Shown here: in pieces, positions 5,234 through 17,493 of the stretch
Layout: each line of letters begins with the position of its first letter
Position numbering within the stretch: the first letter of the stretch is position 1
Assembly (NCBI GenBank): GCA_022708105.1
Contig: JAKIZI010000005.1
Location: 2,820-66,819, forward strand
Length of the DNA: 64,000 bases
DNA from: Bacteroidota bacterium
Lineage (GTDB): Bacteria; Bacteroidota; Bacteroidia; Bacteroidales; WCHB1-69
Reading direction: 5' to 3'
Position numbers and translations under genes: made by a program
The notes under the pieces: generated by a model
Seen by the model: only the letters and a program-made list of their open reading frames with translations
Database searches by the model: none
What the model was told of the DNA's origin: nothing

Positions 5234-5249
5234 TATTAATAATATTTTT

Positions 5250-5615
5250 ATGGAAGAGAAACATATCGTGGACCAAGATCTTTATAAAACTGCCTCTAAA
5301 AGAGTCGGCTTTAAAGTACATGTAACCATTTTCTTGATTGTCATGGCTATGTTGTGGATTATTTATACGTTTATCTTCAAAAAAGAAACTCCCGAAGGAG
5401 AAGAAAACACTTTTTTTCAAGCCATTCTTTTCCTCAATTCAATATGGGCATTGGTCATTGTTGCTCATTATTTAATTGTCTATAAATGGAATAAATCCTT
5501 AATCGAAAAAGAAATTAAAAATATTGAAAAAGAAAACGAAAATTTAAAAAAGAAACTTATTTCAATACAAAAAGAACAAGAAAAAGTAAATGCTTCTAAT
5601 TCCGATAAAGTATAA
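5250..5615 (+). CDS. 2TM-domain membrane protein with C-terminal coiled coil
   Basis: Two hydrophobic helices (VHVTIFLIVMAMLWIIYTFIF, ILFLNSIWALVIVAHYLIVY) then a charged KE-rich tail. Start set at ATG 5250 because the 5193 start would overlap pyrH. Confidence 0.6.
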   Translation: MEEKHIVDQDLYKTASKRVGFKVHVTIFLIVMAMLWIIYTFIFKKETPEGEENTFFQAILFLNSIWALVIVAHYLIVYKWNKSLIEKEIKNIEKENENLKKKLISIQKEQEKVNASNSDKV

Positions 5616-5650
5616 CTTTTTTTTAATGTGAATATTAAAACAGACCTGAT

Positions 5651-6211
5651 ATGGAAGATACCAAACAATGCTTAGAACAGGCCAAGTCGAATATGGAATC
5701 GACTATTGTGTTTTTTGACAAAGAATTACAAAAAGTGCGTGCCGGCAAAGCAAGTCCTCAAATGCTGGATGGACTGAAAGTGGATTATTACGGAAATCCG
5801 ACTCCTATAGAACAAGTAGCCAATATCAACACGCCCGATGCTCGCCAAATCGTTGTTCAACCATGGGAAAGAAACATGCTCCCTATCATTGAAAAAGCAA
5901 TATTAGCAGCAAATTTGGGTTTTACGCCTCAAAATAACGGAGAATTCATTCGTATCGTTGTTCCTGCAATGACGGAAGAAAGAAGAAAAGAATTGGTAAA
6001 GAAAATCAAACAAGATTCCGAACAAAATAAAGTAATTATCCGAAATATCCGCAGAAATGCGAACGAATCTGCCAAGAAATTAAAAGATAACGGAACTCCG
6101 GAAGATGAAGTTAAGAAATTGGAAGCAGACATTCAAAAATTGACCGATGATTACGTGACAAAAATTGACAAAATAGCCGAACTCAAAGAAAAAGAAATAA
6201 TGACCGTATAA
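5651..6211 (+). CDS. frr: ribosome recycling factor
   Basis: 186 aa. LDGLKVDYYGNPTPIEQVANI, PALTEERRKELVK-like (VPAMTEERRKELVK) and IRNIRRNAN motifs. Confidence 0.95.
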   Translation: MEDTKQCLEQAKSNMESTIVFFDKELQKVRAGKASPQMLDGLKVDYYGNPTPIEQVANINTPDARQIVVQPWERNMLPIIEKAILAANLGFTPQNNGEFIRIVVPAMTEERRKELVKKIKQDSEQNKVIIRNIRRNANESAKKLKDNGTPEDEVKKLEADIQKLTDDYVTKIDKIAELKEKEIMTV

Positions 6212-6258
6212 AAACCGTATAAAAAAATTAATATTATTTATCTTAAAAAAATTGTATC

Positions 6259-6639
6259 ATGAATTTTCCTGAAAATTTAAAGTATTCAACCGACCATGAA
6301 TGGTTAAAGGTGGAAGGTGATGAGGTCTATGTAGGCATCACTGCCTATGCAGTTGACCAATTAGGAGATATTGTATTTCTTGATATTCCTTCTGTAGGTG
6401 AAACACTTACCTCAAAAGAACCATTTGGAACCGTTGAAGCCGTAAAAACCGTTTCTGATCTGTTCCTCCCCGTGGACGGCGAAGTACTCGAATTTAATGA
6501 AGCTTTAGAAGCAGACCCGGGAATTATTAATACCGATCCTTATAACGAAGGATGGATCGTAAAAATTAAACCAAGTCATCCTGCTGACATAGATACTCTT
6601 CTTGATGCAGAATCTTACAAAAAAATGATCGGCGAATAA
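6259..6639 (+). CDS. gcvH: glycine cleavage system protein H
   Basis: 126 aa. YSTDHEWLKVEG..., and the lipoyl-lysine context VEAVKTVSDL. Confidence 0.93.
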   Translation: MNFPENLKYSTDHEWLKVEGDEVYVGITAYAVDQLGDIVFLDIPSVGETLTSKEPFGTVEAVKTVSDLFLPVDGEVLEFNEALEADPGIINTDPYNEGWIVKIKPSHPADIDTLLDAESYKKMIGE

Positions 6640-6671
6640 TTTTGTCTCTTTTCAAATATTTATACTTTGTT

Positions 6672-6699
6672 AAGGCATTCTTGAACGGAATGCCTTTTA
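6672..6699 (+). terminator. rho-independent terminator after gcvH
   Basis: AAGGCATTC-ttgaacg-GAATGCCTT hairpin followed by TTAT. Confidence 0.6.
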
Positions 6700-6974
6700 T
6701 ATTGTATTTTTTATTAATCACTTAATTGTTTTTTATTATAGAAATAGCCCCATTGTTGTCAATAAAAAATACGTTTTTGTTGTTAAGCATTAAGAATAGA
6801 TAATTTTACCACAAAAACAAGGAATCTATAAGAAAATGTATTTGTCTTCATGGAGAGAATTTAAGAGTTATTGTTAGAACTATGAAATCATAAATTAGGA
6901 TTTTCAAGAAATTCCTTTTAATAATAATTTGATAAACAATAATAATATATCTTCATTCAGAATTTAATATTTTG

Positions 6975-6982
6975 TACTTTTG
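6975..6982 (+). promoter_or_regulatory. putative -7 box (TAnnTTTG) for the helicase/methylase operon
   Basis: TACTTTTG, 37 nt upstream of the ATG at 7019. Confidence 0.45.
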
Positions 6983-7018
6983 CATAAAATGATTTATAAT
7001 TTGAAATTTTTATAGATA

Positions 7019-10000
7019 ATGAGTAGTAACCATTTTATCACTAACAAAAAAGGAGAAAATTCCTTAGCTGACGTTATCAATCGTATTTTACCAACCAAAA
7101 CAAAAGCATTTGATGCACTTGTTGGATACTTTTACTTTAGCGGATTAACTGAAATATATAATAACCTTTCCGGAGTAAAAGTCCGAATTCTAGTAGGGCT
7201 AGATATGGAAAGAGAATTGATGAACAAAACTTCGGAAATTGATTTTTGGAACCAAGGACGAAAGCCGAATAAACTTACAATTCAAAAAGATTATTTTGAA
7301 TCACTAGTTAATCTTTCTAATACAAATTATTTTGATACGGAAGATCAGAAAAAAGCTTTTTCTATTTATTATCAGAAAATCAAAGATGGTTCTCTTGAAA
7401 TTCGTAAGACAAAAGAACCTTGTCATGCCAAAATGTATATTTTTAGTTTAAAAGACGAACTAAGTGAAGATGGAACAAAATTAGGAACATTGATAACAGG
7501 TTCAAGCAATTTGACTTTTAGTGGGTTACGCCGCCAAGACGAAATTAATGTCCGATTTGACGGAAATCCTGAAGTAGAAGAAGGAATGCAGATATTTGAA
7601 AATTTATGGAAAAAGGCAATTGTGATTGCTGATAAAGAAAATATTAAACCATTTGAAGATAATGTAATTAATAAAATTTGGATAGACAAACTTGTACCTC
7701 CCAATTTAGTATTTCTAAGAGTTTTACATGAATATTTTGCCATTGATTCAAGTAAACGCATCAGAACGCCATACGATATAACACATGGAAGGTTTCTAAA
7801 TCTTAAATATCAAGAAGATGCTGTCAGGTTAGCGATGCAAACCATTGAACAACATAATGGTGCAATTATAGCTGATGTAGTTGGATTAGGGAAAAGTATT
7901 ATTGCCGCAACAATTGCTAATAATTTGAATATAAGAACCATTATTATAACACCACCTCATCTTACAAAACAGTGGGAAGATTATCGTATTCAATTTAATA
8001 TCAATGCCATGGTTTTTAGTAGTGGCATTATAGAAAAAGCATATAATGAATATAATAATTTATCTCAAAATAGAGAAAAATGGCTAATTATTATTGATGA
8101 AGCACATAATTATCGGAATGAATATACAAAAGACTATTCTTTTTTAAAACAAATTTGCCAAGATAACAAAGTGTTATTGCTAACCGCCACCCCTTTTAAC
8201 AATAAACCGGAAGATATTTTTTCTATGGTTAAATTATTCCAAATTCCAGGCAAATCAACCATACAAACTGCCAGTAATTTAGGATATTATTTTCGTAACT
8301 GTATTTCCACATATAAGGATTTACGAAAATCTCAAAAAGAAAAAACTATATCCGAATCTGAATTGAAAAAAGAAACAGCCAACATTGCCAAGCGAATTCG
8401 AACAATTATACAACCTTTAGTAATAAGACGTTCTCGGATAGATCTTGAAAAAATTCCGGATTATAAAAAAGATTTGAAACGTCAAAAAATCGATTTTCCT
8501 GAAGTTGCTGACCCTATACTACTTGAATATCCTTTGGGTAATTTAGAAGATTTATACGCCCAAACGCTAAATCTTATTTCTCCCAAAAATACTATCAGGG
8601 AGACTAATAATAAAACAGAAAATCCAATTTCTTTTAAGGCAACTAGATATAAACCAATGCAATATATCAAAGAGAATTCTATCGCAGAATTACAACGTGA
8701 TATTGAAGAAGCTGGATTTGATTATGATTTATTTCGCGAGTCTCAACAGAATTTATCAAAGTTTATGCGATCTCTATTAGTTCGCAGATTTGAAAGTTCA
8801 CAAAGCGCATTTAAAACATCAATTAAAAATATGAGGAGAAATTGTGACAACATTCTTTTATGGGCTGAAAAACGCAATGCTGTCCCCATATATAAAAAAG
8901 GAAATCTGCCAGACATTAAAAGTTTGTATGATGAACCCAATGATGTCTATCCGGATCTTATTGAAGATATTGTTGGTGGCGAAATTAATAAATTGCAAGA
9001 AAAAGGACTCTTTGAAATCAAGACCAAGTATTTAAAAGAATCATTTTTTGAAGATTTAAAAGAAGATATTGCTATTCTAAAAAAAATTGAGAATGATTGG
9101 GCAAATGTAAGTTCTGACCCTAAAACAGAACATTTCATTGCCATAATAAAAGAAAAAATATTAAATGATCCCCAGCGTAAAATAATTGTTTTTACTGAAT
9201 TTGCTGATACGGCAAATTACTTAAGTGAACAACTCAAAAAATGCGACCTTCCGGTTTTTAAATACACCTCTGCTGATGCAAGCACATCAAATAAAGAAAA
9301 AATAAATTCTAATTTTGATGCAAGTTATTCTAAAAAAAATCAAAACAACGATTTTCAAATTCTTATTGCTACTGATGCTATTTCAGAGGGATATAATTTA
9401 CATCGAGCAGGTGCAATTTTCAACTATGATATTCCATATAATCCGACTCGTGTAATTCAACGTGTAGGACGTATCAATCGTATTAATAAACGAATGTTCG
9501 ATCAACTATTTATATTTAATTATTTCCCAACTGCTTTAGGAGAAGAAGAAACTCGTGGAAAAGAAATTTCAACTCTTAAAATGAATATGATACAAGCTCT
9601 TATGGGAGAAGATACTAAGATTTTAACTAAAGAAGAAGAATTACAATCATTTTTCAATGAACAATATCGAGAATTGATTAAAAAGAATGAAGAAGAATCT
9701 TGGAGTACAAAATACGAAATCAAGTTACAGCAAATGAGAGGAACACAAGAAATGAAAGAGGCTTTATCAATACCTCTACGTACTCGAATACGTCGTTTAA
9801 CTCATAAAGAACAAAAAGGGGTTTTAGTATTTGGGAAAAAAGGAAATAATTTTGTATTTAAAATCGGAAAAACTCCTTCTCTGATAGAAACTCTTGACCC
9901 TGAAAAAGCATTTTCTCTTTTTGAGCCAAACGAAGAGGATGAATTTTCATATAGTACTTCTGATAATTTTTATCCAATATACAATGCTGTTGAAAATGAA

Positions 10001-10360
10001 TTATTTAAACAAATTGATGATTCAAATATTGAAAAAAACAAACGTGATTCTATCGACAAAATTAAAATAATAAAAGATTCTGGTATTATTAAGGATGAAG
10101 AATATCTTGATGGTTTAATCGAGGCTTTAGAGTTAGAAGCATTAGAAGGATATGCCTTGAGAAAAATCAATAAACTTAAAGAAATTGATTTTCCAAAACT
10201 AAATGAAATTGTAAGTCGGGAATACTTGAATAAGATTTTAGATAAATCAAACCAGATCTCAAATGGCAAAGAAACATTAATTTTATCTGAAGAAATTGAA
10301 TCTGATTTTGCAAATCATAATTTGATGCATAATCAAAATCAAATAAGTATGAATATTTAA
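7019..10360 (+). CDS. PLD-family (HKD) nuclease domain fused to an SNF2-like SF2 helicase/translocase; putative restriction/effector subunit
   Basis: 1113 aa. Single HKD motif CHAKMYIF...LITGSSNLT (H136/K138, nt 7424..7513). SF2 motifs ADVVGLGKS (I), IIIDEAHNYRN (II, DEAH), LLTATPFNN (III) and RVIQRVGRINRI (VI). C-terminal extension of about 330 aa. Confidence 0.85.
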   Translation: MSSNHFITNKKGENSLADVINRILPTKTKAFDALVGYFYFSGLTEIYNNLSGVKVRILVGLDMERELMNKTSEIDFWNQGRKPNKLTIQKDYFESLVNLSNTNYFDTEDQKKAFSIYYQKIKDGSLEIRKTKEPCHAKMYIFSLKDELSEDGTKLGTLITGSSNLTFSGLRRQDEINVRFDGNPEVEEGMQIFENLWKKAIVIADKENIKPFEDNVINKIWIDKLVPPNLVFLRVLHEYFAIDSSKRIRTPYDITHGRFLNLKYQEDAVRLAMQTIEQHNGAIIADVVGLGKSIIAATIANNLNIRTIIITPPHLTKQWEDYRIQFNINAMVFSSGIIEKAYNEYNNLSQNREKWLIIIDEAHNYRNEYTKDYSFLKQICQDNKVLLLTATPFNNKPEDIFSMVKLFQIPGKSTIQTASNLGYYFRNCISTYKDLRKSQKEKTISESELKKETANIAKRIRTIIQPLVIRRSRIDLEKIPDYKKDLKRQKIDFPEVADPILLEYPLGNLEDLYAQTLNLISPKNTIRETNNKTENPISFKATRYKPMQYIKENSIAELQRDIEEAGFDYDLFRESQQNLSKFMRSLLVRRFESSQSAFKTSIKNMRRNCDNILLWAEKRNAVPIYKKGNLPDIKSLYDEPNDVYPDLIEDIVGGEINKLQEKGLFEIKTKYLKESFFEDLKEDIAILKKIENDWANVSSDPKTEHFIAIIKEKILNDPQRKIIVFTEFADTANYLSEQLKKCDLPVFKYTSADASTSNKEKINSNFDASYSKKNQNNDFQILIATDAISEGYNLHRAGAIFNYDIPYNPTRVIQRVGRINRINKRMFDQLFIFNYFPTALGEEETRGKEISTLKMNMIQALMGEDTKILTKEEELQSFFNEQYRELIKKNEEESWSTKYEIKLQQMRGTQEMKEALSIPLRTRIRRLTHKEQKGVLVFGKKGNNFVFKIGKTPSLIETLDPEKAFSLFEPNEEDEFSYSTSDNFYPIYNAVENELFKQIDDSNIEKNKRDSIDKIKIIKDSGIIKDEEYLDGLIEALELEALEGYALRKINKLKEIDFPKLNEIVSREYLNKILDKSNQISNGKETLILSEEIESDFANHNLMHNQNQISMNI

Positions 10361-10372
10361 AAAATATAATTT

Positions 10373-13300
10373 ATGATAGATTTTTCAAAACCTTACAACA
10401 GAGAAGATTTCCTCACGTTTTTAGAAGATGATTTGCTTCCGAATGATTTTGAAATTTGCGAAAAAGAGATACCTTTATCAGGTTTTCAACAAAGGTTTGT
10501 TTCATCAGTAACAAAATTAGGAACGTGTAAAAGCTTGGGGTTAGATGTTTTTGAAATGAAACATCAATCTTTACATGATGCACGTGTTGGAATCTCTAAA
10601 GATGCCTTTCAAATAATTCTTCATAAAAGTTTGAATAATAGAGCTTTGGTTATTTTTCTACCTCATCAAAATAATGAACAATATCGTTTTTCACTTATCC
10701 AAATTGAAACATCAATAGAAGATGATAAACTAAGAAGAAGTTATTCAAATCCACGCAGATATTCCTACATTCTAGGAAAAGGGACACCAACAACAACACC
10801 TACTCAATTTTTGGGAAAAGGAAGAATAAGAGCTACTGAAAAAAATTCATTATTCGATGATTTACAAAATCGTTTCTCTGTTGAAGTATTAACAAAACAA
10901 TTTTACAATGAATTGTTTGAATGGTATCAATGGGCTTTATCTCCACAAATGGGAATTACTTATCCTAATAATACAGATATTCTAAGCGATGACCGCCATA
11001 AAATTGAAGAGCATCTTATTCGTTTGATTACTAGAATTATGTTTGTTTGGTTCATTAAACAAAAAAAACTTGTTCCTGACAATCTGTTTGAAATTGACTT
11101 TTTAAAATCTATCTTGAAAGATTTTGATCCCCAAAGTAGAATTGTGGGTAATTACTACAATGCCATTTTGCAAAATCTATTTTTTGCAACACTTAATAAA
11201 GAAATTGGAAAAAGAGATTTTGCATATGATGAGGATGATCGCAATATGCGAAAAGAACATTATGGCATTAAAACTTTATATCGTTATAAAGAGATGTTTT
11301 CTATTTCAGATAATGAAATTGTTAAACTTTTCCAATCTGTTCCATTTCTTAATGGAGGATTATTTGAATGTCTTGATAAAGAAAAAGATGCTGATACAGA
11401 TCTAATCATTTATTACGACGGATTCAGCAGAAATAAAGATTTTTTTCCTAATACACAGACTTATAAGTGTAGAGCATTTATTCCTAATCAACTTTTTTTT
11501 GATGAACAAAAAGGATTAATCCCCTTACTTGCAAAATACAATTTTACTGTTGAAGAAAATTCACCAAATGATGCAGATGTAGCCCTTGATCCCGAATTAT
11601 TAGGAAAAGTTTTTGAAAATCTTTTAGGTGCTTATAATCCGGAAACGAAAGAGACTGCACGAAACCAATCCGGCTCTTTTTACACACCAAGAGAAATTGT
11701 TGATTATATGGTCAATGAATCGCTTATAGCCTATACCGAATCATCTTGTTCTAATTCTCCTAATAATATTCCAAAAGATATCTTTCGAGAATTATTTACG
11801 AAAGAAGATTTACCTGAATTTCTGGTTAATAGTCATGAATATTGCGAATTAATTGCCAATAAATTACGTTCAGCTAAAATATTAGATCCGGCCTGCGGTT
11901 CGGGCGCATTTCCAATGGGAATATTAAATAAAATGGTTCGTGTGTTAGAAAAATTGGATTGTAGAAAAGAAAAAACTGTTTATGCCCAAAAACTACATCT
12001 GATTGAAAATTGTATTTATGGGGTTGATATCCAAAATATTGCTGTTCAAATAAGCAAATTACGATTTTTTATTTCTTTAATATGCGAACAGGAAAAAGAT
12101 GAAACTAAGCCCAATTATGGAATTCCCACTCTTCCCAATTTGGAAACCAAATTTGTAGCAGCGAACACTTTAATTGACATTAAAAAACGTCCGGCTCAAG
12201 GTAATTTATTTGAAGACCCGGAAATAGAAATTACTCAAAAAGAGTTATTAGCAGTAAGAAAGCAACACTTTTCCGCAATCAATGCACAACAGAAAGCCGA
12301 ATGCCGTTTTAAGGATAAGCAATTACGCGAAAAATTGGCAAAATTACTCGCTGACAATGAAGAATACTCTCCTGACGATGCAATACAAATGGCCCATTGG
12401 AATCCTTATGACCAAAATGCCACTTCTCTGTTTTTTGATGCAGAGTGGATGTTCGGAGTCAATACAGGATTTGATATTGTAATTGGGAATCCGCCGTATA
12501 TTTCAACTAAAGGAGTAAAAGAAGATGATAAAAAAGCGCTTGAAAAGGAATTTGGCTTTGCTGACGATACGTATAACCATTTCTTTTTCAAAGGGAAACA
12601 ATTATTAAACACAAATGGAAACTTAACTTTTATCACTCCAAAAACATTTTGGACGACACAAACAAAACGTAATTTGCGAGATTTATTGCTCGATAATAAA
12701 ATCAATTATTTTTTCGATACGGCGAATCCGTTTGAGGCTGCAATGGTTGATGCATGCATTACTTCGTTTACAAATAAAACAGTAAAAAACAATGAAATTC
12801 GTTTTTTAGATGGAAGCAAAGATTTGTCTAATCCATTTAAATATTTCGTTTCTCAAGAGGTTTACCGCAACACACAGAACTCTGTAATTTTCAAACCAAC
12901 CCCCGAAAACATGCGTATTTACGAGAAATACGGTCAAAAGGTAAAAGAACTTTATGACAAATGGTGGGACAAAATCAAAACTTCGCGGGATATTGAAAAA
13001 AACAAAGAAGAACTTGAAGCCTATCGTAAGAGTTTGAAACCCGGTGATGTTGCTTTACTTGGTTGCTTAACAGAAGGTGGTCAGGGATTGGCTACTGCAA
13101 ACAACGGTAAATATATTGCCGTCAGAAAATCCACAAAATGGGCAAAAAATATTTTGGAATCACGTTCTAAAAAACTTGTCGAAGCCATACAAAAAAAGAA
13201 AATACAAGTGCAAGGTTTAGAGCAATTTGCTAATGTTACAGATTTTCTTACATCTTTGTCGGAAATTGAAATAGCAAAATTATTTGATGACCTCAAAGAA

Positions 13301-13987
13301 AAATATGGTCGTGATATTTTTGGTCAAGGTTATATTTATCGTTTAATAGACGATAATGAAGTCGCAAATGTAAATGAGTTAACGCAAGACGAAAAAGACA
13401 ATGGCATTGATACTTCCAAAAAGTATTATGTTCCTTACGATAAAGGTGATAAAGACGGAAACCGATGGTATCTTGAGACACCTTTTGCCATCGCTTGGAG
13501 CAAAGAAAATGTCCGTTTTTTGAAGACGAATTCAGGCAAAAAAGGTGAAGGCATGCCTGTCGTTAGAAATCCACAATTCTATTTTAGGGAGGGGCTCTGT
13601 TGGAATGATATAAATACTACATTTTTAAAATGTCGTTTAAAGGGTAAAAGTATTAATGACGTAAAAAGCATGAGTCTATTTCCCTTGTGTGATTTTGTTC
13701 CTATTTCCTTTATTGTTTGTGTTATAAATTCAACTTTTATAAGTTATTATGTTGATAATTATGTGAATAATACACAAACTTTTCAAATTAATGATGCAAG
13801 GCAACTTCCGATTGTTATTCCAACAAAAGAAACTTTGATAAGCTATAACAGAATTTTTGATGAAGCATATGCTGTTAAACAAGAGCTGTTTTGTAACAGC
13901 GTTAATATCAATGAGGATGAACAAAAATTAAACAGCATTCAAAAGAGAATAGATAAAATGGTTATACAATTATACGGTTTGGAGTAA
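10373..13987 (+). CDS. Eco57I-like gamma-class N6-adenine DNA methyltransferase with C-terminal TRD-like region (expressed copy of the shufflon)
   Basis: 1204 aa. Motif I DPACGSGAF (11885..11911) lies upstream of motif IV GNPPY (NPPY at 12488..12499). Starts 12 nt after the helicase stop. The C-terminal 135-160 aa are paralogous to two downstream cassettes. Confidence 0.85.
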   Translation: MIDFSKPYNREDFLTFLEDDLLPNDFEICEKEIPLSGFQQRFVSSVTKLGTCKSLGLDVFEMKHQSLHDARVGISKDAFQIILHKSLNNRALVIFLPHQNNEQYRFSLIQIETSIEDDKLRRSYSNPRRYSYILGKGTPTTTPTQFLGKGRIRATEKNSLFDDLQNRFSVEVLTKQFYNELFEWYQWALSPQMGITYPNNTDILSDDRHKIEEHLIRLITRIMFVWFIKQKKLVPDNLFEIDFLKSILKDFDPQSRIVGNYYNAILQNLFFATLNKEIGKRDFAYDEDDRNMRKEHYGIKTLYRYKEMFSISDNEIVKLFQSVPFLNGGLFECLDKEKDADTDLIIYYDGFSRNKDFFPNTQTYKCRAFIPNQLFFDEQKGLIPLLAKYNFTVEENSPNDADVALDPELLGKVFENLLGAYNPETKETARNQSGSFYTPREIVDYMVNESLIAYTESSCSNSPNNIPKDIFRELFTKEDLPEFLVNSHEYCELIANKLRSAKILDPACGSGAFPMGILNKMVRVLEKLDCRKEKTVYAQKLHLIENCIYGVDIQNIAVQISKLRFFISLICEQEKDETKPNYGIPTLPNLETKFVAANTLIDIKKRPAQGNLFEDPEIEITQKELLAVRKQHFSAINAQQKAECRFKDKQLREKLAKLLADNEEYSPDDAIQMAHWNPYDQNATSLFFDAEWMFGVNTGFDIVIGNPPYISTKGVKEDDKKALEKEFGFADDTYNHFFFKGKQLLNTNGNLTFITPKTFWTTQTKRNLRDLLLDNKINYFFDTANPFEAAMVDACITSFTNKTVKNNEIRFLDGSKDLSNPFKYFVSQEVYRNTQNSVIFKPTPENMRIYEKYGQKVKELYDKWWDKIKTSRDIEKNKEELEAYRKSLKPGDVALLGCLTEGGQGLATANNGKYIAVRKSTKWAKNILESRSKKLVEAIQKKKIQVQGLEQFANVTDFLTSLSEIEIAKLFDDLKEKYGRDIFGQGYIYRLIDDNEVANVNELTQDEKDNGIDTSKKYYVPYDKGDKDGNRWYLETPFAIAWSKENVRFLKTNSGKKGEGMPVVRNPQFYFREGLCWNDINTTFLKCRLKGKSINDVKSMSLFPLCDFVPISFIVCVINSTFISYYVDNYVNNTQTFQINDARQLPIVIPTKETLISYNRIFDEAYAVKQELFCNSVNINEDEQKLNSIQKRIDKMVIQLYGLE
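13511..13527. repeat. inverted repeat arm IR-1 (in the expressed MTase copy)
   Basis: GTCCGTTTTTTGAAGAC (encodes VRFLKT). Its perfect reverse complement is at 14767..14783. Confidence 0.9.
13577..13593. repeat. inverted repeat arm IR-2 (in the expressed MTase copy)
   Basis: TTCTATTTTAGGGAGGG (encodes FYFREG). Its perfect reverse complement is at 14719..14735. The match extends to 24/27. Confidence 0.9.
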
Positions 13988-13988
13988 T

Positions 13989-14016
13989 GAGGGATTTTGC
14001 TGGACAAATGTTTTAA
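13989..14016. repeat. inverted repeat arm IR-3 (cassette B side)
   Basis: GAGGGATTTTGCTGGACAAATGTTTTAA matches the reverse complement of 14696..14723 at 25/28. Confidence 0.7.
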
Positions 14017-14354
14017 ATCCACAAGCACGGCTTTTAAAAGCAAAAATGAAAGCAAAATCGGTAAATGACGTAGGTTCAATGGCATTATATTCAATGCTTT
14101 ACGTTACACCTAATTATTATTTTGTTGCATTACTAAATTCAGAATTATTGTTTGATTATTATCGTGATTATATAAATTGCACTGTAAATATTCAAATAAA
14201 CGATATTCGGCAGTTACCTATCATAATACCAACAGAAAAACAACTCAAAAAAATTGAAATAATTTTCCACAAGGCTGTGAGTTTGAAAAAAGACAGTAAT
14301 TCAATAATTGAACTCAATGAATTAGAAAATGAATTAGAAAAAGATATTAGAATA

Positions 14355-14369
14355 TTATATGAAATATAA
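14355..14369. repeat. 15-nt palindrome holding the stop codons of cassettes B and C
   Basis: TTATAT-GAA-ATATAA. TAA at 14367..14369 on the plus strand and TAA (reverse of 14355..14357) on the minus strand. Confidence 0.8.
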
Positions 14370-14695
14370 TTTTTGTATATATTTATCTATCTTATTTTGA
14401 ATAATTTCTAATTCTGAATCATTATCGTTGATGCGTAAAAGTATTGCTTGATCAAAAATATTTTTCACCTCTAATAATTCTTGTCTTGTTGGTACAACTA
14501 TTGGAATTAACTTGGCATCTCCAGTAGTACAATGCGAAGTTGAATTTACAAATGAATCAACATAGTAAGCAATTAAACGAGAGTTCATTACTGTTATCAT
14601 ATAAAATTCAGGAACATCTTCTGTTTCAGAAAAAAATGACATACTTTCTGTGCTATGTACCGTTGATTGTTTCTTTCTACATTTAATATGCGTGG

Positions 14696-14723
14696 TTAAA
14701 ACATTATTCCAACAAAATCCCTC
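14696..14723. repeat. inverted repeat arm IR-3 (cassette C side)
   Basis: Its reverse complement, GAGGGATTTTGTTGGAATAATGTTTTAA, matches 13989..14016 at 25/28. Confidence 0.7.
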
Positions 14724-14735
14724 CCTAAAATAGAA
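14719..14735. repeat. inverted repeat arm IR-2 (cassette C side)
   Basis: CCCTCCCTAAAATAGAA is the perfect reverse complement of 13577..13593. Confidence 0.9.
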
Positions 14736-14766
14736 CATATATCCTTGATAACGAGCCTTCGGGTCA

Positions 14767-14783
14767 GTCTTCAAAAAACGGAC
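14767..14783. repeat. inverted repeat arm IR-1 (cassette C side)
   Basis: GTCTTCAAAAAACGGAC is the perfect reverse complement of 13511..13527. It lies 12 nt from the recombinase stop codon. Confidence 0.9.
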
Positions 14784-14795
14784 GTTATTATAGAT

Positions 14796-15446
14796 TTAGT
14801 AAATTCCTCGTTTCCAACGTCCATTATTTGATTTTATTGGTTCGCGTACATTTGTATAAGCAAGGTATCGGTATAATGTTCCACGTGCTATTTTCAGGTG
14901 TTTTGCAATCAACGGAATACTTTCGCCTTGTGCAATTTTTCTGATAATATAATAGTGTTTTGTTGTACATTTCCGGTTTAGCGATTTGTTTCTAATGCCT
15001 TTTTGTCTGCCAATAATTTTCCCTTCCGCCTTTGCTCTCGCCAATGCCTCTTTTGTCCGCTGAGAAATCAAATTACGTTCAATTTCAGCCGAAAGTCCAA
15101 ATGCAAACGCTAAAACTTTGCTCGAAATGTCGCTACCAAGACGGTAATTGTCTTTAATCGTCCAAAGTTGGATTTCTTTTTTCATACAGGCGGAAAGTAC
15201 ATCCATAATCATAAACAGACTACGTCCTAAACGTGAAAGTTCGGAACAAATAAGAATGTCGTCCTTTTGTAGTTTTTTTAGCAATTTGCCCAATTGCCGT
15301 TTTTCAACGGCCTTAGTGCCGCTAATGGTTTCTTCAATCCATTCATCAATTTTCAAATTCTGTCGCTCACAAAAGTTATTAATTTCAAAGCGCTGGTTTT
15401 CTACTGTTTGTTTATCGCTGCTAACGCGAATGTATCCATAAATCAT
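14796..15446 (-). CDS. serine recombinase (resolvase/invertase family), candidate shufflon invertase
   Basis: MIYGYIRVSSDKQ catalytic-serine motif, SELSRLGRS, AEIERNLISQRTKEALA, and a C-terminal HTH (IAKHLKIARGTLYRYL). Start set at ATG 15446; the 29 upstream codons in the ORF track look spurious. Confidence 0.85.
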   Translation of the reverse strand: MIYGYIRVSSDKQTVENQRFEINNFCERQNLKIDEWIEETISGTKAVEKRQLGKLLKKLQKDDILICSELSRLGRSLFMIMDVLSACMKKEIQLWTIKDNYRLGSDISSKVLAFAFGLSAEIERNLISQRTKEALARAKAEGKIIGRQKGIRNKSLNRKCTTKHYYIIRKIAQGESIPLIAKHLKIARGTLYRYLAYTNVREPIKSNNGRWKRGIY

Positions 15447-15598
15447 AGTGTTTTTTTGTAGGGAAGATAAGAAAAAAATCTTACCACCAAAAAACAAAAT
15501 CCGCAGGCAGATACAAGACAAGAGTATCCGCAAATAGACAATATCTTGTATGAGGTGAATGAGAAGAAAATAAAAATGAGAAAAATAAATTGAGATTC

Positions 15599-15637
15599 GG
15601 TTGACAATTTAAAATATTTATATTACATTTGTCAACC
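15599..15637. promoter_or_regulatory. operator-like inverted repeat in the recombinase / XRE-ImmA divergent region
   Basis: GGTTGACAA (15599..15607) and TTGTCAACC (15629..15637), 9-bp arms separated by 21 nt. The right arm overlaps the -7 box TACATTTG. Confidence 0.4.
15624..15631 (+). promoter_or_regulatory. putative -7 box (TAnnTTTG) for the XRE-ImmA gene
   Basis: TACATTTG, 25 nt upstream of the ATG at 15656. Confidence 0.4.
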
Positions 15638-15655
15638 AAATAAAGATACTGAATT

Positions 15656-16708
15656 ATGAATATAAATTTTTCACAACGGCTTAAAAATGCGAGGGTTATG
15701 AACGGACTCTCGATGGATGACCTATGTAAGAAATTGAATAATATAGTGTCAAAACAATCCATTTCCAAATATGAAAGCGGCAAAATGATGCCTGATAGTA
15801 CTGTGCTGATAGCCCTATCTAACGCACTTAACGTAAAAATAGATTATTTTTTTCGTCCACTATCCGTTTCATTGGGGAATATTGAATTTAGAAAAAAAAC
15901 TAAATTATCGAATCGTGAACTTTTAACTATCAAAGAAATTATTCGCGATAAGTTGGAACGATATGTGGAAGTTGAGGATATATGTAATATGATATCCGAT
16001 TTCTCTACTGATTTTTCTAATGTTACCGTGCATGGCGAAGATGATATATATGCTCTTGCAGCACGATTAAAGAACGAATGGCAATTGGGCGAAGATGGCA
16101 TCAATAATCTTATTGAAATATTAGAAGAACACCAAATTAAGGTTATAGAAATTAATGAAGTTGATAGTTTTGATGGATTAAGCGGATTGGTCGGAGCAAA
16201 AAAACCGATAATTGTAATCAACAAATCATTTACCGTTGAGAGAAAACGTTTTACCGCTTTGCACGAATTAGGACATATTTTATTGCATTTTGACGAGAAT
16301 TTAGATTCAAAAGTAAAAGAACATTTATGCCATTTGTTCGCAAGCGAAATGCTTATCTCCCGTGATGTATTTTTTAAAATGATTGGAAATTCAAGGAAAG
16401 ATATTTCATTGAATGAACTTCGCGACATACAAACTCAATTTGGGATATCTGTTGACGCCTTGATGTTTAAAGCAAAACAGTTGAATATCATTAGCGAACA
16501 GCGACACAAATATTTCTGTATGCAGAAAAATAAAAATACGGAATTTAAGCACAAAGTTATGCTGAGTACGGCAAAACCAGAAAACTCAAACCGATTTGAA
16601 CGCTTGGTATATCGTGCATTAGCCAGCGATATTATTTCTTTGTCAAAAGCGTCTGTATTACTCAATATTCCGTTAACAACAGTTCGTAACGAATTAAATT
16701 TGGTATAG
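15656..16708 (+). CDS. fused XRE-family HTH regulator / ImmA-IrrE-type zinc metallopeptidase
   Basis: 350 aa. N-terminal HTH (LSMDDLCKKLNNIVSKQSISKYESGKMMP). HEXXH motif HELGH at 16262..16276 in a COG2856-like C-terminal domain. Confidence 0.8.
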   Translation: MNINFSQRLKNARVMNGLSMDDLCKKLNNIVSKQSISKYESGKMMPDSTVLIALSNALNVKIDYFFRPLSVSLGNIEFRKKTKLSNRELLTIKEIIRDKLERYVEVEDICNMISDFSTDFSNVTVHGEDDIYALAARLKNEWQLGEDGINNLIEILEEHQIKVIEINEVDSFDGLSGLVGAKKPIIVINKSFTVERKRFTALHELGHILLHFDENLDSKVKEHLCHLFASEMLISRDVFFKMIGNSRKDISLNELRDIQTQFGISVDALMFKAKQLNIISEQRHKYFCMQKNKNTEFKHKVMLSTAKPENSNRFERLVYRALASDIISLSKASVLLNIPLTTVRNELNLV

Positions 16709-16711
16709 AAT

Positions 16712-17215
16712 ATGGATATTGTTGTAAGCGATACAAATATATTTATTGACTTATACTTAATTGGTTTGCTGAATGAATTTTTTGCATTGCCATTTCATAT
16801 CCACACAGTTGATTTTGTTATCAATGAAATAACCGAAGAAAAACAAAAAAGAACGATAACAAAGTTCCTTACAGCTAATAGGCTATTTGTAAAAAAATAT
16901 TCAATTATTGAATTACAAGAGCTTGTAAAATTAAATATCTCGTGTAAAGGGAATGTTTCCATAACAGATTGTGCAGTTTGAAAATATGCCAGAACCAATA
17001 ATTACACACTATTAACAGGCGATAAACAATTGCGTAATCAGGCAATAATGGATGGAGTTACTGTAGCTGGTTTAATATTTATTTTTGATCAATTAGTTAA
17101 ATGCAATATTATAACGCCACTTATTGCTGCCGAGAAATTAGAAAAATTATTACAAAATAACAAACGTTTACCCAAACGAGAAATAGAAGAACGCTTGTTA
17201 AAATGGAAGAAATAA
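16712..17215 (+). pseudogene. PIN-like (DUF3368/PIN_3-type) nuclease gene interrupted by one in-frame TGA
   Basis: ORFs 16712..16981 and 17030..17215 are in the same frame. Read through TGA 16979..16981 they give MDIVVSDTNIFIDL...SITDCAV*KYARTNNYTLLTGDKQLRNQA...VAGLIFIFDQL. This has the N-terminal acidic PIN motif and the LLTGD motif on either side of the stop. Confidence 0.6.
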
Positions 17216-17493
17216 ATAATTTATTTATTTCCTGACAGCCTAAACTCTATTTTATAGTTTTTTTTCTCCAGCGTAATCCCGTAAAACGGATAAATTAAGT
17301 TATCTATTGGGTGATAACTTGATACAAAAATAACTGAGCAAAACGCAAGCAAATTGTATTAAAAAATGTTTTAAATCAGCCAATGGAGATAAAATGATTG
17401 CATGCAAAAAAGTCAAGAAAAAATATTTTGATTATTTGCTCATTAAATATGATTTGTATTTCTTTCTCGATAGCACTATAAAATCCCACTAAT

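What the first reader, a model, noticed from the sequence alone, without database searches (positions are those of the whole stretch)
7019..13987. Minimal two-gene R-M-like module: PLD(HKD)-nuclease/SNF2-translocase fusion plus an Eco57I-like MTase-TRD protein
Gene 1 carries one HKD phospholipase-D-family nuclease motif (H136-A-K138...GSSN, nt 7424..7513). It sits N-terminal to a complete SF2/SNF2-like ATPase (GLGKS, DEAH, TATP, QRVGRINR) and is followed by a tail of about 330 aa.

Gene 2 starts 12 nt downstream. It is a gamma-class N6-adenine MTase (motif I at 11885..11911 before NPPY at 12488..12499) with large N- and C-terminal extensions.

The island contains none of these genes: a separate endonuclease, HsdS, Res, PglZ/BrxC, or DrmA/DrmB (DUF1998).

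Functionally it resembles Type III/ISP logic, with an ATP-driven translocase-nuclease plus a MTase carrying its own TRD. The parts differ, though: a PLD nuclease replaces PD-(D/E)xK, and SNF2 replaces Res/HsdR. The same domain families (SNF2 DrmD, PLD DrmC, Eco57I-like DrmMI) occur in class 1 DISARM, but here they are condensed into two ORFs without the DISARM core.

Single-HKD nucleases act as dimers, which implies the effector dimerises.

I cannot tell from sequence alone whether this exact architecture has been characterised.
Basis: partly seen in the sequence, partly recalled or inferred. Interest (0 to 1): 0.7.

Follow-up and report, generated by a model that had tools for sequence, protein, structure and literature searches.

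The report
Phase-variable PLD–SNF2 restriction-modification module
The two genes are real and form the conserved core of a widespread, unnamed restriction-modification-like defence module, and in this genome it also carries spare DNA-recognition cassettes and an invertase that can probably switch which sequence it targets.

Summary

Gene 1 is a single-HxK PLD nuclease fused to a Snf2-family ATPase, plus a family-specific tail. Gene 2 is a gamma-class m6A methyltransferase with a PglX/Type IIG-like recognition domain. Its N-terminal domain has no conserved nuclease catalytic residues.

The pair is not a one-off. Relatives occur in 523 species genomes, and all 73 informative loci among the 80 examined have the gene 2 homologue directly downstream. 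None of the contexts examined holds DUF499, DUF3780, PglZ, BrxC or DrmA/B.

Together they form a shufflon offering three alternative C-termini.

The architecture has been listed before, in a Bacteroides ovatus locus with long-read-confirmed inversion (Milman 2023), but I found no name or functional study. The nearest characterised system, MANTIS/Gao_RL, needs two further proteins.

Verdict: a new variant of a known kind, of moderate interest.

The parts
6975..6982 (+). Candidate Bacteroidota-type -7 promoter box (TACTTTTG), 37 nt upstream of the gene 1 start codon.
   Evidence: The pattern TAnnTTTG is enriched in the window: 110 matches against 78 +/- 10 expected. It sits just upstream of several housekeeping genes. 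There is no such box in the 12-nt gap between genes 1 and 2. This is weak, consensus-only evidence.
7019..10360 (+). Gene 1 (1113 aa): PLD nuclease, Snf2-family ATPase and a family-specific C-terminal tail. Predicted motor-nuclease effector.
   Evidence: The closest solved structures by sequence are Snf2 proteins (DDM1, RapA, ISWI, E about 1e-8).
7166..7609 (+). PLD-like nuclease domain (aa 50-197). It has a single HxK (H136/K138, nt 7424-7432) and GSSN (nt 7499-7510).
   Evidence: PLDc_2 E 4e-13, above gathering score. The motif residues are invariant in 25 homologues. Sequence.
7805..9487 (+). Snf2-type SF2 ATPase core. N-lobe aa 263-483, with GLGKS at 7883-7897, DEAH at 8096-8107 and TATP at 8183-8194. 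A long inter-lobe insert follows. C-lobe aa 710-823, with QRVGR at 9458-9472.
9494..10357 (+). C-terminal tail of gene 1 (aa 826-1113), a domain found only in this protein family.
   Evidence: - No Pfam or PADLOC match.
- 239 clusters at 50% identity among 1.84 billion proteins. In every full-length hit (about 1060-1220 aa) the domain is C-terminal.
- AlphaFold model: mean pLDDT 74.
- The best Foldseek hits are RapA, but they are not significant (E 0.5).
10373..13987 (+). Gene 2 (1204 aa): N-terminal domain, helical linker, gamma-class N6-adenine methyltransferase and C-terminal recognition domain. Predicted specificity and modification subunit.
   Evidence: A profile of the family matches BrxX/PglX structures (9EWZ, 8C45) at E about 1e-24.
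10373..10867 (+). N-terminal domain of gene 2 (aa 1-165): an alpha/beta fold without a conserved nuclease catalytic site.
   Evidence: - Model pLDDT is about 90 over aa 1-135.
- R71 is the best-conserved residue of aa 1-100 (invariant in 24 homologues; 42 of 45); R105 and R129 are invariant in 45.
- E61 is present in 22 of 45 homologues and K63 in 16 of 45. There is no conserved acidic residue in the preceding strand.
- No PADLOC match for aa 1-214.
- No significant Foldseek match in the PDB.
11885..12499 (+). Methyltransferase catalytic region, from motif I (DPACGSGAF, 11885-11911) to motif IV (NPPY, 12488-12499).
   Evidence: In sister-strain contigs L086 and L087 the gene is about 99.5% identical up to NPPY and unrelated after it.
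13508..13984 (+). The recognition-domain cassette currently expressed (aa 1046-1204 of gene 2). This is the exchangeable part.
   Evidence: The profile aligns it with E. coli BrxX residues 750-871. That stretch is the second half of the BrxX recognition domain and holds the base-reading residues R751, Q784 and N823 (PMC11842806).
13508..13527 (+). Left arm of the outer inverted repeat (AATGTCCGTTTTTTGAAGAC), the proposed crossover site.
   Evidence: It is 19/20 complementary to 14767-14786 (I11). Homology of the inverted cassette starts exactly here, and stop codons lie just beyond it. The same site, GTCCGyTTyTTGAAGAC, is found in L013 and L075 and, more diverged, in L010 and L089.
13577..13633 (+). 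Inner repeat in gene 2, coding for FYFREG(L/F)CWN. It is paired with 14679-14735 (-).
   Evidence: I1: 57 nt, 74%. (30 nt, 90%).
13989..14369 (+). Silent cassette A, in direct orientation, with no start codon or promoter of its own. It begins at the inner repeat (13989-14016).
   Evidence: - tblastn to the gene 2 C-terminus: E 6e-19.
- 38% identity with a conserved framework.
- Weak TaqI_C match.
- Matches positions 787-884 of the PglX model.
- The 28-nt repeat is 89% complementary to 14696-14723 (I2).
14355..14786 (-). Silent cassette B, in inverted orientation. It carries both the inner repeat (14696-14723) and the outer repeat (14767-14786).
   Evidence: - tblastn E 2e-32.
- 43% identity to the expressed cassette.
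- Matches positions 774-888 of the PglX model.
- Sequence read.
14796..15446 (-). Mpi-family serine DNA invertase. The ORF is listed as 14796..15533 from a TTG, but the likely start is the ATG at 15446 (MIYGYIRVSS).
   Evidence: - Pfam Resolvase plus HTH_7.
- NCBIfam NF009949 'master DNA invertase Mpi family': 319 bits against a cut-off of 272.
- In 41 related loci with enough downstream DNA, cassette and invertase occur together in 12 and neither occurs in 29. Neither is ever found alone.

Best explanation
This is an ATP-dependent, methylation-guided restriction-modification-like defence module with a built-in specificity switch.

**Gene 2.** It is the sequence reader and self-marker. Its recognition domain binds a short site, probably asymmetric, and its gamma-class methyltransferase puts m6A on one strand. 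It has no nuclease of its own.

**Gene 1.** It is the effector. Once gene 2 sits on an unmethylated site, the Snf2 motor of gene 1 hydrolyses ATP to move on double-stranded DNA. Its PLD domains pair up, two single-HxK domains making one active site, and cut the foreign DNA.

**Discrimination after replication.** Because only one strand would be marked, telling self from foreign probably depends on two unmodified sites in inverted orientation, as in Type III, Type ISP and MANTIS.

**The invertase.** The Mpi-family invertase recombines the inverted repeats. This swaps the last ~135-160 aa of gene 2, the half of the recognition domain that reads bases, among three cassettes. Methylation and restriction specificity then change together in a fraction of cells.

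**Shown here.** The domains and motifs; the strict gene linkage; the cassettes, repeats and invertase; and a natural inversion in a related locus.

**Inferred.** Contact between the two proteins, translocation, cleavage, hemimethylation, and the change of specificity.
For: **Catalytic motifs intact.** The PLD, Snf2 and methyltransferase motifs are all present and invariant.

**Strict operon linkage.**
- Relatives of gene 1 occur in 523 species genomes.
- In 73 of 73 informative loci the gene 2 homologue follows directly. About 50 of these have a gap under 100 nt.
- The pair is also found in loci from Capnocytophaga and a Helicobacteraceae MAG and on a record filed as a Parabacteroides plasmid.

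**No other partner.** No other nuclease, ATPase loader, or BREX/DISARM core gene appears in the window or in the annotated contexts examined.

**Gene 2 has no nuclease site.** Its N-terminal domain lacks a conserved catalytic site, which leaves the PLD of gene 1 as the only candidate nuclease.

**Behaves like a restriction operon.** When a gene sits between the two, it is of a kind I recall as typical hitchhikers of Type I RM operons: RhuM, Bro-N or Schlafen/AlbA_2; Milman et al. do list RhuM among genes enriched near programmed inversions.

**The swapped segment reads bases.**
- It aligns with BrxX 750-871, which carries base-reading residues.
- My hand-mapping of the alignments puts different residues in the three cassettes at the positions matching BrxX Q784/G785 (VK, VG, ST) and N823 (T, N, H).

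**The shufflon is a unit and is active in nature.**
- Cassette and invertase co-occur in 12 of 12 loci.
- Two metagenomes with identical gene 1 (L081, L082) differ by exchange of inverted segments.
- Milman 2023 confirmed inversions by long reads in a B. ovatus locus of the same described architecture.

**Precedent for the effector.** The MANTIS protein MtsD is a PLD-SF2 dimer with one PLD site, and it is needed for restriction of unmethylated DNA.

**A probable family member is an active methyltransferase.** In Prevotella intermedia 17F the locus is an upstream SNF2 helicase, a 3354-nt 'Type IIG' gene and an inverted 918-nt ORF. The cloned gene alone methylates GGYGAB, while the native strain shows three related motifs. 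That is what a shufflon would give.
Against: - No restriction or phage-defence activity has been shown for any member of this family.
- MANTIS cleavage could not be reconstituted in vitro, and its methyltransferase needs an AAA+ loader that is absent here. The analogy is therefore incomplete.
- The solitary Type IIG relative Cj0031 restricts phage on its own, so a gene-2-like protein is not necessarily nuclease-free.
- About half of the family, this window included, keeps an E-x-K triplet in the N-terminal domain.
- The models of the gene 2 N-terminal region and of the gene 1 tail gave no significant structural match. Neither their fold class nor any role in contact between the two proteins is established.
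- Homology of the P. intermedia and B. ovatus literature loci to this window was inferred from their described architecture and sizes. It was not tested on sequence.
- Inversion has not been observed in this strain; only one assembly state is available.
Confidence: 0.6

Rival explanations
1. Gene 2 is a self-sufficient Type IIG restriction-methyltransferase like Cj0031, MmeI or Eco57I. Its N-terminal domain cuts DNA near the site. Gene 1 is an accessory or a second line of defence, for example a motor that improves restriction or degrades DNA already cut, rather than the primary nuclease.
For: - The best PADLOC match of gene 2 is 'Type IIG restriction enzyme-methyltransferase' (3e-60).
- Milman 2023 calls such genes Cj0031 homologues and finds them solitary or with other partners.
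- Cj0031 alone restricts phage 5- to 1000-fold.
- The N-terminal domain model has an alpha-beta-beta-beta-alpha-beta order of elements, and the window copy has D58-x-x-E61-x-K63.
Against: - The E-x-K triplet is kept in only 16-22 of 45 homologues, and no acidic residue is conserved in the preceding strand.
- Members that lack it (P0175, P0207) still sit next to the PLD-Snf2 gene.
- The PADLOC Type IIG models match only from aa 215 onward, not the N-terminal domain.
- Linkage to gene 1 is 73 of 73 among the loci retrieved through gene 1, with operon spacing.
Confidence: 0.15
2. The module acts like BREX or DISARM. The methyltransferase and the Snf2 protein block replication of unmethylated DNA without cutting it, and the PLD domain is dispensable or has another role.
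For: - The closest solved relatives of gene 2 are BrxX/PglX.
- The best PADLOC and NCBIfam matches of gene 1 are DrmD, BrxHII, DpdE and HmaA.
- By my recollection, DNA cleavage has not been shown for classical BREX.
Against: - The PLD catalytic residues are invariant across the family, which argues for selection on nuclease activity.
- The BREX/DISARM core proteins (PglZ, BrxC, DrmA/B) are absent.
- In BR type-2/MANTIS the fused HKD nuclease is regarded as the primary effector.
Confidence: 0.1
3. The locus is mainly an epigenetic switch (a phasevarion). Inversion changes the methylation motif and thereby gene expression, and defence is secondary or absent.
For: - Cj0031 phase variation alters transcript levels.
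- The shufflon changes the recognition domain.
- An Mpi-family invertase is present. By my recollection, Mpi controls many invertible promoters in Bacteroides.
Against: - About 70% of related loci have no cassette or invertase, yet they keep the nuclease-motor gene.
- A methyltransferase used only for regulation would not need an invariant PLD-Snf2 partner.
- The two roles are not exclusive.
Confidence: 0.07

Closest known systems
Unnamed 'Type II RM gene with immediately upstream PLD + SNF gene' in Bacteroides ovatus (CP083813.1:5322008-5329826), Milman, Yelin and Kishony 2023 (PMC9881135)
   Same: - Same described gene order and domains.
- The gene is a target of programmed inversion, confirmed there by long reads.
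- Homologues are reported in three phyla, matching.
- This is most probably the same family.
   Different: It is only listed in a table, with no name, no functional test, and no analysis of the partner gene. I could not fetch the sequence, so homology rests on the description.
MANTIS / Gao_RL / BREX-related (BR) type 2 (MtsA-D); PMC12839542 and bioRxiv 10.64898/2026.09.23.753747
   Same: - An N-terminal HKD/PLD nuclease fused to a Swi2/Snf2-type helicase serves as effector, paired with an N6-adenine methyltransferase that supplies site recognition.
- There is an ATP-dependent RM-like logic.
- The PLD dimer has one active site.
- Hemimethylation of an asymmetric site is shown there and predicted here.
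   Different: - MANTIS needs a DUF499 AAA+ ATPase (MtsA) and a small DUF3780 protein (written DUF3870 in the MANTIS preprint; MtsB) to load and activate the methyltransferase. Neither is in the window or in the related loci whose neighbours were annotated.
- Gene 1 scores 125.6 bits against a cut-off of 1100 on NCBIfam's PLD anti-phage model. Whether that model is MtsD I could not check.
- Gene 2 is of the PglX/Eco57I type with a large N-terminal extension.
Class 1 DISARM (DrmA, DrmB, DrmC, DrmD, DrmMI)
   Same: The same three domain families are present: a Snf2 helicase (DrmD), a PLD nuclease (DrmC) and an Eco57I-like adenine methyltransferase (DrmMI).
   Different: - There is no DrmA (YprA helicase) and no DrmB (DUF1998).
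- Here the PLD is fused to the Snf2 protein.
- The DrmD model scores 160.5 bits against a cut-off of 610.
Type ISP restriction enzymes (LlaGI, LlaBIII)
   Same: The functional parts list is the same: nuclease, SF2 motor, gamma-class m6A methyltransferase and recognition domain. The predicted logic of one-strand methylation with site-orientation dependence is also shared.
   Different: - Type ISP enzymes are one polypeptide with an Mrr/PD-(D/E)xK nuclease and a non-Snf2 motor. This is from my own knowledge of the family.
- Here there are two polypeptides, a PLD nuclease and a Snf2 motor.
SauUSI (Type IV) and NgoAVII/CglI (ATP-dependent Type II)
   Same: A PLD nuclease is coupled to an SF2 helicase-like ATPase, and cleavage requires ATP (PMC5861437).
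   Different: - SauUSI is a stand-alone enzyme that attacks modified DNA through its own C-terminal recognition domain.
- CglI puts the PLD and the DNA-binding domain in one subunit and a DEAD-Z1 motor in another, with a separate methyltransferase.
- Neither has a PglX-like partner.
BREX PglX/BrxX and its shufflons (Lacticaseibacillus BREX-1)
   Same: - These are the closest solved structures to gene 2.
- The swapped cassette matches BrxX 750-871.
- PglX genes are among the most enriched targets of programmed inversion.
   Different: - PglZ, BrxC, BrxA, BrxB and BrxL are all absent.
- The PglX model scores 114 bits against a cut-off of 500.
- The N-terminal domains are not alignable.
Pin17FIII locus of Prevotella intermedia 17F (PMC5608340)
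   Same: - A 7.6-kb locus: an upstream SNF2/RAD54 helicase gene, a 3354-nt 'Type IIG' gene and an inverted 918-nt ORF.
- The cloned gene alone gives m6A at GGYGAB, while the native methylome shows three related motifs.
   Different: - The authors read it as a Type IIG system.
- Restriction was not tested.
- An invertase and inversion were not discussed.
- Homology to this window was not verified on sequence.

Membership tests
PLD (HKD) nuclease superfamily | A PLD-like domain with the catalytic HxK and the downstream GSxN. | tested here: met
   PLDc_2 scores 49.8 bits against a gathering score of 27. H136, K138 and G161-S-S-N164 are invariant in 25 homologues. The canonical Asp is replaced (HAKMYIFS).
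Snf2 family of SF2 ATPases | A Snf2-related N-lobe plus a Helicase_C lobe, with motifs I, II, III and VI intact. | tested here: met
   SNF2-rel_dom scores 50.5 bits against 24.9, and Helicase_C 63.8 against 23.5. The best PDB sequence matches are DDM1, RapA, ISWI, Chd1 and INO80. The motifs are invariant.
Gamma-class N6-adenine DNA methyltransferase (Eco57I/PglX-like) | Motif I (xxDPACGSG) upstream of motif IV (NPPY), with the recognition domain C-terminal. | tested here: met
   Eco57I scores 106.6 bits against 25.3. D505-F513 and N706-Y709 are invariant or nearly so. The C-terminal part aligns with the BrxX recognition domain.
Type IIG/IIL restriction-methyltransferase (MmeI, Eco57I, Cj0031) | An N-terminal PD-(D/E)xK nuclease domain with conserved catalytic residues, in the same polypeptide. 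| tested here: not met
   - E61 is present in 22 of 45 homologues and K63 in 16 of 45, with no conserved upstream acidic residue.
- The PADLOC Type IIG models do not match aa 1-214.
- Foldseek found no significant PDB match.
- Activity in the window copy itself cannot be excluded from sequence.
Class 1 DISARM | The core genes drmA (YprA-like helicase) and drmB (DUF1998) in the locus. | tested here: not met
   No such domain occurs in any ORF of at least 80 aa in window 1-24000 or in related loci with precomputed Pfam annotation.
Class 1 DISARM | DrmD equivalog score. | tested here: not met
   NF038317 scores 160.5 bits against a cut-off of 610, and NF038318 71 against 950.
BREX (any type) | PglZ phosphatase and BrxC/PglY ATPase in the locus, and a PglX equivalog score. 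| tested here: not met
   There is no PglZ or BrxC. The BREX-1 PglX model scores 114.3 bits against a cut-off of 500.
BR type 2 / MANTIS (Gao_RL) | An HKD nuclease fused N-terminally to a Swi2/Snf2-type helicase, plus an N6-methyltransferase. | tested here: met
   The definition is taken from PMC12839542.
BR type 2 / MANTIS (Gao_RL) | A DUF499 AAA+ ATPase (MtsA) and a DUF3780 protein (MtsB) in the locus. DUF3780 is present in 98% of type-2 loci. | tested here: not met
   Neither is in the window, in five related contexts with Pfam annotation, or in the RefSeq-annotated plasmid locus. When a gene lies between genes 1 and 2 it is RhuM, Bro-N or Schlafen-like.
Type ISP restriction enzymes | A single polypeptide carrying a PD-(D/E)xK (Mrr-like) nuclease, motor, methyltransferase and recognition domain. 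| tested here: not met
   There are two ORFs separated by stop and start codons, and the nuclease is a PLD.
SauUSI-like Type IV enzymes | A stand-alone PLD-SF2 protein with a C-terminal recognition domain for modified cytosine (DUF3427). | tested here: not met
   The tail has no Pfam or PADLOC match, and the gene is always linked to a methyltransferase. Whether the enzyme depends on modified DNA cannot be tested here.
Mpi-family serine DNA invertase | NCBIfam equivalog score above the cut-off, with a Resolvase catalytic domain and an HTH. | tested here: met
   NF009949 scores 319.1 bits against a cut-off of 272. Resolvase plus HTH_7.
Programmed-inversion shufflon of a specificity gene | Silent homologous cassettes, inverted repeats at the homology boundary, and an adjacent invertase. 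| tested here: met
   Cassette and invertase co-occur in 12 of 12 loci.
Programmed-inversion shufflon of a specificity gene | More than one orientation observed in a population. | tested here: inconclusive
   This cannot be tested for this strain, which has a single assembly. In a related locus with identical gene 1, two metagenomes differ by exchanged inverted segments (L081 against L082). Long-read proof exists for the B. ovatus locus in the literature.

The most novel reading that the evidence does not exclude
The pair is a self-sufficient two-protein class of ATP-dependent restriction enzyme. A PglX-like methyltransferase bound to an unmethylated site directly licenses a Snf2-PLD motor-nuclease, with no AAA+ loader (BrxC, DUF499 or MtsA) and no YprA helicase. 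The docking surfaces would be the two family-specific domains, the gene 2 N-terminal domain and the gene 1 tail.

If so, this is the minimal working form of the Snf2 + PglX-like pair embedded in BREX-3, class 1 DISARM, ARMADA and BR/MANTIS. It would offer a tractable model for how that shared pair turns recognition of an unmethylated site into an effector response. Here it also comes with a natural three-way specificity switch.
Probability: 0.35. Interest if true: 0.7.

Novelty: new variant of a known kind. Interest (0 to 1): 0.52.

Why it matters
Methylation-based defences built around a Snf2 helicase and a PglX-like methyltransferase (BREX, DISARM, ARMADA, BR/MANTIS) are common. How site recognition by the methyltransferase is converted into restriction is still unclear for BREX and only partly resolved for MANTIS.

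This family strips the machinery down to those two proteins plus a fused nuclease. It is abundant in gut and oral Bacteroidota: 523 species genomes, and thousands of protein clusters. It therefore offers a small system in which that coupling could be reconstituted.

It also matters for annotation. Judging from the model scores, current tools would most likely call gene 2 'Type IIG RM' or 'PglX' and leave gene 1 as an orphan 'DrmD-like' or 'helicase-related' protein.

The invertase-driven cassette exchange adds a ready-made experiment on how a recognition-domain half sets specificity. It could also explain methylomes with several related unassigned motifs, such as Prevotella intermedia 17F.

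Tried and rejected
- **Single-protein genome scan.** A scan of the genome collection with gene 1 found nothing. It was repeated with an alignment and succeeded.
- **Structure search, gene 2 N-terminal region.** Foldseek of the 480-aa model against the PDB gave no hit below E 0.01. The fold class is left open.
- **Structure search, gene 1 tail.** The best hits were RapA at E 0.5-2. This is too weak to claim the RapA-like tail that PMC12839542 describes for BR helicases.
- **PADLOC model C3a139 'HKD+Snf2'.** It covers aa 15-993 at only 105 bits. It turned out to be a type III CRISPR accessory family from Shah et al. 2018 (PMC6546367), so it is not this system.
- **Mpi recognition consensus.** A full-text search for the Mpi inverted-repeat consensus as I remembered it found no paper. 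No claim is made that the repeats match a known Mpi site.
- **HTH-Peptidase_M78 gene.** I considered the gene at 15656..16708 and the broken PIN-like ORFs as part of the system. I rejected this because they have no counterpart next to the pair in any related locus.
- **L018 and L033.** These loci seemed to lack gene 2. In both, another ORF follows gene 1 and the contig then ends. They are uninformative, not exceptions.
- **Host identification.** A Bacteroidota host is inferred from gene content, promoter boxes and the names attached to homologues.

Full report
**1.

They lie in a low-GC stretch of about 30%, against about 39% for the flanks. The flanks hold housekeeping genes: ffh, a Na/H exchanger, pyrH, frr and gcvH upstream, and DUF2147, an ABC transporter, trmB, ftsZ and ftsA downstream.

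Gene 1 matches Pfam PLDc_2 (aa 50-197), SNF2-rel_dom/ResIII (aa 263-483) and Helicase_C (aa 710-823), all above gathering score. By sequence, its nearest solved structures are Snf2 proteins: DDM1, RapA, ISWI, Chd1 and INO80.

In an alignment of 25 homologues at 52-83% identity, these residues are all invariant:
- H136-A-K138
- G161-S-S-N164
- GLGKS 289-293
- DEAH 360-363
- TATP 389-392
- Q814-R-x-G-R818

One small correction: the Asp of the textbook HKD motif is not there (HAKMYIFS).

Gene 2 matches Eco57I, N6_Mtase and MmeI_Mtase. DPACGSGAF (aa 505-513) lies upstream of NPPY (aa 706-709), and both are invariant or nearly so. The gamma-class assignment is therefore right.

**2. The pair is a conserved unit of a large family**

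A search with gene 1 returned more than 7600 full-length-type homologues, capped by the tool. Most are from Bacteroidales and carry only generic names such as 'helicase-related protein', 'SNF2-related' or 'phospholipase D-like'.

A profile scan of one genome per species found relatives in 523 genomes, and 80 loci were fetched.
- In every locus with enough DNA (73 of 73), a gene 2 homologue lies directly downstream on the same strand.
- About 50 of these have a gap under 100 nt.
- The two apparent exceptions, L018 and L033, are contigs that end after an inserted gene.

Where a gene is inserted between the two (about 20 loci), it is RhuM, Bro-N or Schlafen-AlbA_2/HATPase_c_4. By my recollection these are the usual passengers of Type I restriction operons.

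The same order is seen in three further settings:
- Capnocytophaga, next to relaxase genes.
- A Helicobacteraceae MAG.
- A record filed as a Parabacteroides distasonis plasmid, where RefSeq calls the genes 'SNF2-related protein' and 'N-6 DNA methylase'.

None of the contexts with domain annotation shows DUF499, DUF3780, PglZ, BrxC, a YprA helicase or DUF1998.

**3.

Directly after the stop codon of gene 2 lie two promoterless copies of its last ~135-160 aa.
- Cassette A is at 13989..14369 on the + strand.
- Cassette B is at 14355..14786 on the - strand.
- tblastn against the gene 2 C-terminus gives E 6e-19 and 2e-32.
- They are 38-43% identical to the expressed cassette, with a shared framework: EG-CW, SM, NS, N-T, D, PI--PT, IF, LY.

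An Mpi-family serine invertase follows at 14796..15446 on the - strand. NCBIfam NF009949 scores 319 bits against a cut-off of 272.

A 20-nt repeat in gene 2 (13508-13527, AATGTCCGTTTTTTGAAGAC) is 19/20 complementary to 14767-14786, at the invertase-proximal edge of cassette B. Homology of cassette B begins exactly there, and stop codons lie just beyond it.

A second repeat, coding for FREG(F/L)CWN, occurs three times: 13577-13633 (+), 13989-14016 (+) and 14696-14723 (-). One inversion at the outer repeat would fuse cassette B to gene 2. A further inversion at the inner repeat would bring in cassette A. Three C-termini are therefore reachable.

Among 41 related loci with a complete gene 2 and at least 2.5 kb downstream:
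- 12 have one or more inverted cassettes, and the same 12 have an Mpi-like invertase just beyond.
- 29 have neither.
- None has only one of the two.

The shufflon is thus an optional add-on, present in about 30% of loci. It is present here. The two-gene core is what is universal.

Two metagenome contigs with an identical gene 1 protein (L081, L082) differ by exchange of inverted segments around a collinear middle piece. This is the signature of nested inversions in natural populations.

**4. What the swapped piece is**

A profile of the gene 2 family matches E. coli BrxX (9EWZ) in two stretches. One is the methyltransferase core. The other, profile positions 1051-1175 against BrxX 750-871, is exactly the exchangeable cassette.

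In the BrxX-DNA structure the recognition domain is residues 651-837. R751, Q784 and N823 read bases 1, 3' and 4 of the site, and changing G785/N823 alters specificity (PMC11842806).

I hand-mapped the two printed alignments onto each other.
- At the positions matching Q784/G785, the three cassettes carry V-K, V-G and S-T.
- At the position matching N823, they carry T, N and H.

This is an inference from alignment, not a measurement. It does make a change of recognition sequence the most likely consequence of inversion.

A coarser kind of exchange is also visible. Two contigs from sister strains are 96.5% identical to the window across 12.5 kb and about 99.5% identical within genes 1 and 2. 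They diverge completely right after the NPPY codons, into a different methyltransferase C-half and recognition domain.

**5. Where the nuclease is**

The N-terminal 165 aa of gene 2 model with high confidence as an alpha/beta domain (pLDDT about 90).

Several tests argue against an active nuclease there:
- R71 is the best-conserved residue of the first 100 aa (invariant in 24 homologues, 42 of 45). R105 and R129 are invariant in 45 homologues.
- The E-x-K seen in the window copy is present in only 16-22 of 45 homologues.
- No acidic residue is conserved in the preceding strand.
- Members without E-x-K are still linked to the PLD-Snf2 gene.
- The PADLOC Type IIG models match gene 2 only from aa 215 onward.
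- Foldseek found nothing significant.

By contrast, the PLD site of gene 1 is invariant. I therefore take gene 1 as the nuclease and gene 2 as reader and methyltransferase.

The rival view is that gene 2 cuts by itself, as the solitary Cj0031 appears to do. It is not excluded, and I give it 0.15.

The 288-aa tail of gene 1 matches no library model. It occurs only at the C-terminus of proteins of about 1060-1220 aa: 239 clusters at 50% identity among 1.84 billion proteins. Its best structural neighbours are RapA, but not significantly (E 0.5).

**6. Most likely mechanism**

*Shown:* intact catalytic motifs, strict operon linkage, no other partner, cassettes plus invertase, and natural inversion in a relative.

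*Inferred, by analogy with Type III, Type ISP and MANTIS:*
- Gene 2 binds a short asymmetric site and methylates one strand.
- On unmethylated sites it recruits or activates gene 1.
- The Snf2 motor translocates on duplex DNA using ATP.
- Two PLD domains form one active site and cut.
- Inverted pairs of unmodified sites are probably the preferred target, which would protect freshly replicated host DNA.

The PLD-dimer point has direct precedent in the 2.2 Å structure of MtsD and in SauUSI.

Literature on a probable family member fits this picture. In Prevotella intermedia 17F a 7.6-kb locus holds an upstream SNF2/RAD54 helicase gene, a 3354-nt 'Type IIG' gene and an inverted 918-nt ORF.
- The cloned gene alone methylates GGYGAB in E. 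coli.
- The native strain shows three related motifs that the authors could not assign (PMC5608340).

That is what an autonomous methyltransferase with a three-state shufflon would give. I could not verify homology on sequence.

**7. Comparison with known systems**

By the best available evidence, the same architecture was listed by Milman et al. 2023. [quoted passage not shown] It is targeted by long-read-confirmed programmed inversions and has homologues in three phyla. It was neither named nor tested.

The nearest characterised system is BR type 2, also called MANTIS or Gao_RL. It has an HKD-Swi2/Snf2 effector and an N6-methyltransferase, but also a DUF499 AAA+ ATPase and a small DUF3780 protein (written DUF3870 in the MANTIS preprint). 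The latter two are required even for methylation.

Membership in named families fails on defining features.

| Family model | Score (bits) | Cut-off (bits) |
|---|---|---|
| DrmD (NF038317) | 160 | 610 |
| NCBIfam PLD anti-phage protein | 126 | 1100 |
| DpdE | 109 | 500 |
| BREX-1 PglX | 114 | 500 |

The core genes of DISARM, BREX and BR are also absent.

A Snf2 helicase paired with a PglX-like methyltransferase recurs in BREX-3, in BR/Hma and in ARMADA, and by my recollection in class 1 DISARM (DrmD with DrmMI). The present family is that pair alone, with a nuclease fused on.

**8. Verdict**

Its question about prior description has an answer: the architecture has been seen and its relatives partly characterised, but this two-protein form has, as far as I could find, neither a name nor a functional study.

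I rate it a new variant of a known kind, with interest about 0.5. It is valuable mainly as a minimal, abundant model for the Snf2-PglX coupling, with a natural specificity switch.

Noticed in passing
window 12488-13000, compared with loci L086 and L087: Sister-strain metagenome contigs encode an identical gene 1 protein and are about 99.5% identical through gene 2 up to the NPPY codons. They then switch abruptly to an unrelated methyltransferase C-half and recognition domain ('IGNPPYIQLQNNGGELGK...'). The whole specificity half has been replaced, with the breakpoint at motif IV.
   Followed up: partly
window 15656-17215: An HTH_3 + Peptidase_M78 gene (spr1629-like repressor/antitoxin, below cut-off) is followed by two short ORFs (16712..16981 and 17030..17215). 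They read like one broken PIN-like gene ('MDIVVSDTNIFIDL...'). The cluster is not found next to the system in any related locus, so it is probably separate cargo of the same low-GC island.
   Followed up: partly
loci L012, L021, L031, L032, L039, L042, L047, L049, L051 and L054, between the gene 1 and gene 2 homologues: About 20 of 73 related loci carry an extra gene between the two core genes: RhuM, Bro-N, or Schlafen-AlbA_2/HATPase_c_4 with or without an HTH. By my recollection the same passengers occur in Type I restriction operons.
   Followed up: partly
window about 6700-17800: A low-GC island (about 29-33% against 37-42% elsewhere) is bounded by gcvH and a DUF2147 gene. In a Paludibacter-like contig (L081) the same system also lies a few kb from frr and pyrH, which may be coincidence.
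   Followed up: no
whole window, for example 1366, 1424, 2805, 4494, 6975, 15624 and 18407: The Bacteroidota -7 promoter box TAnnTTTG is over-represented (110 matches against 78 +/- 10 expected). It sits just upstream of many start codons, which is consistent with a Bacteroidota host.
   Followed up: partly
L091 (Allomeiothermus silvanus plasmid pMESIL02, NC_014214.1), locus 4834-12375: A distant relative of gene 1 (30% identity over 89% of its length) has a 787-aa 'DNA methyltransferase' two genes upstream instead of a downstream PglX-like gene. Similar 'helicase-related proteins' occur on plasmids of Thermus, cyanobacteria, actinobacteria and archaea. These look like other arrangements of the same effector.
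   Followed up: no
L090 (Parabacteroides distasonis 'plasmid 18', NZ_OY725763.1), locus 5210-17243: Here the pair sits in what looks like a defence island. An HTH gene and an 'RNA-binding domain' (Schlafen-like) gene lie upstream. A TIR-domain protein and an AAA protein lie downstream.
   Followed up: no
L018 9281-11275: The 664-aa ORF after gene 1 is unrelated to the Schlafen-like inserts. From its sequence motifs it looks to me like an IS66-type transposase, but I did not check this with a family search.
   Followed up: no
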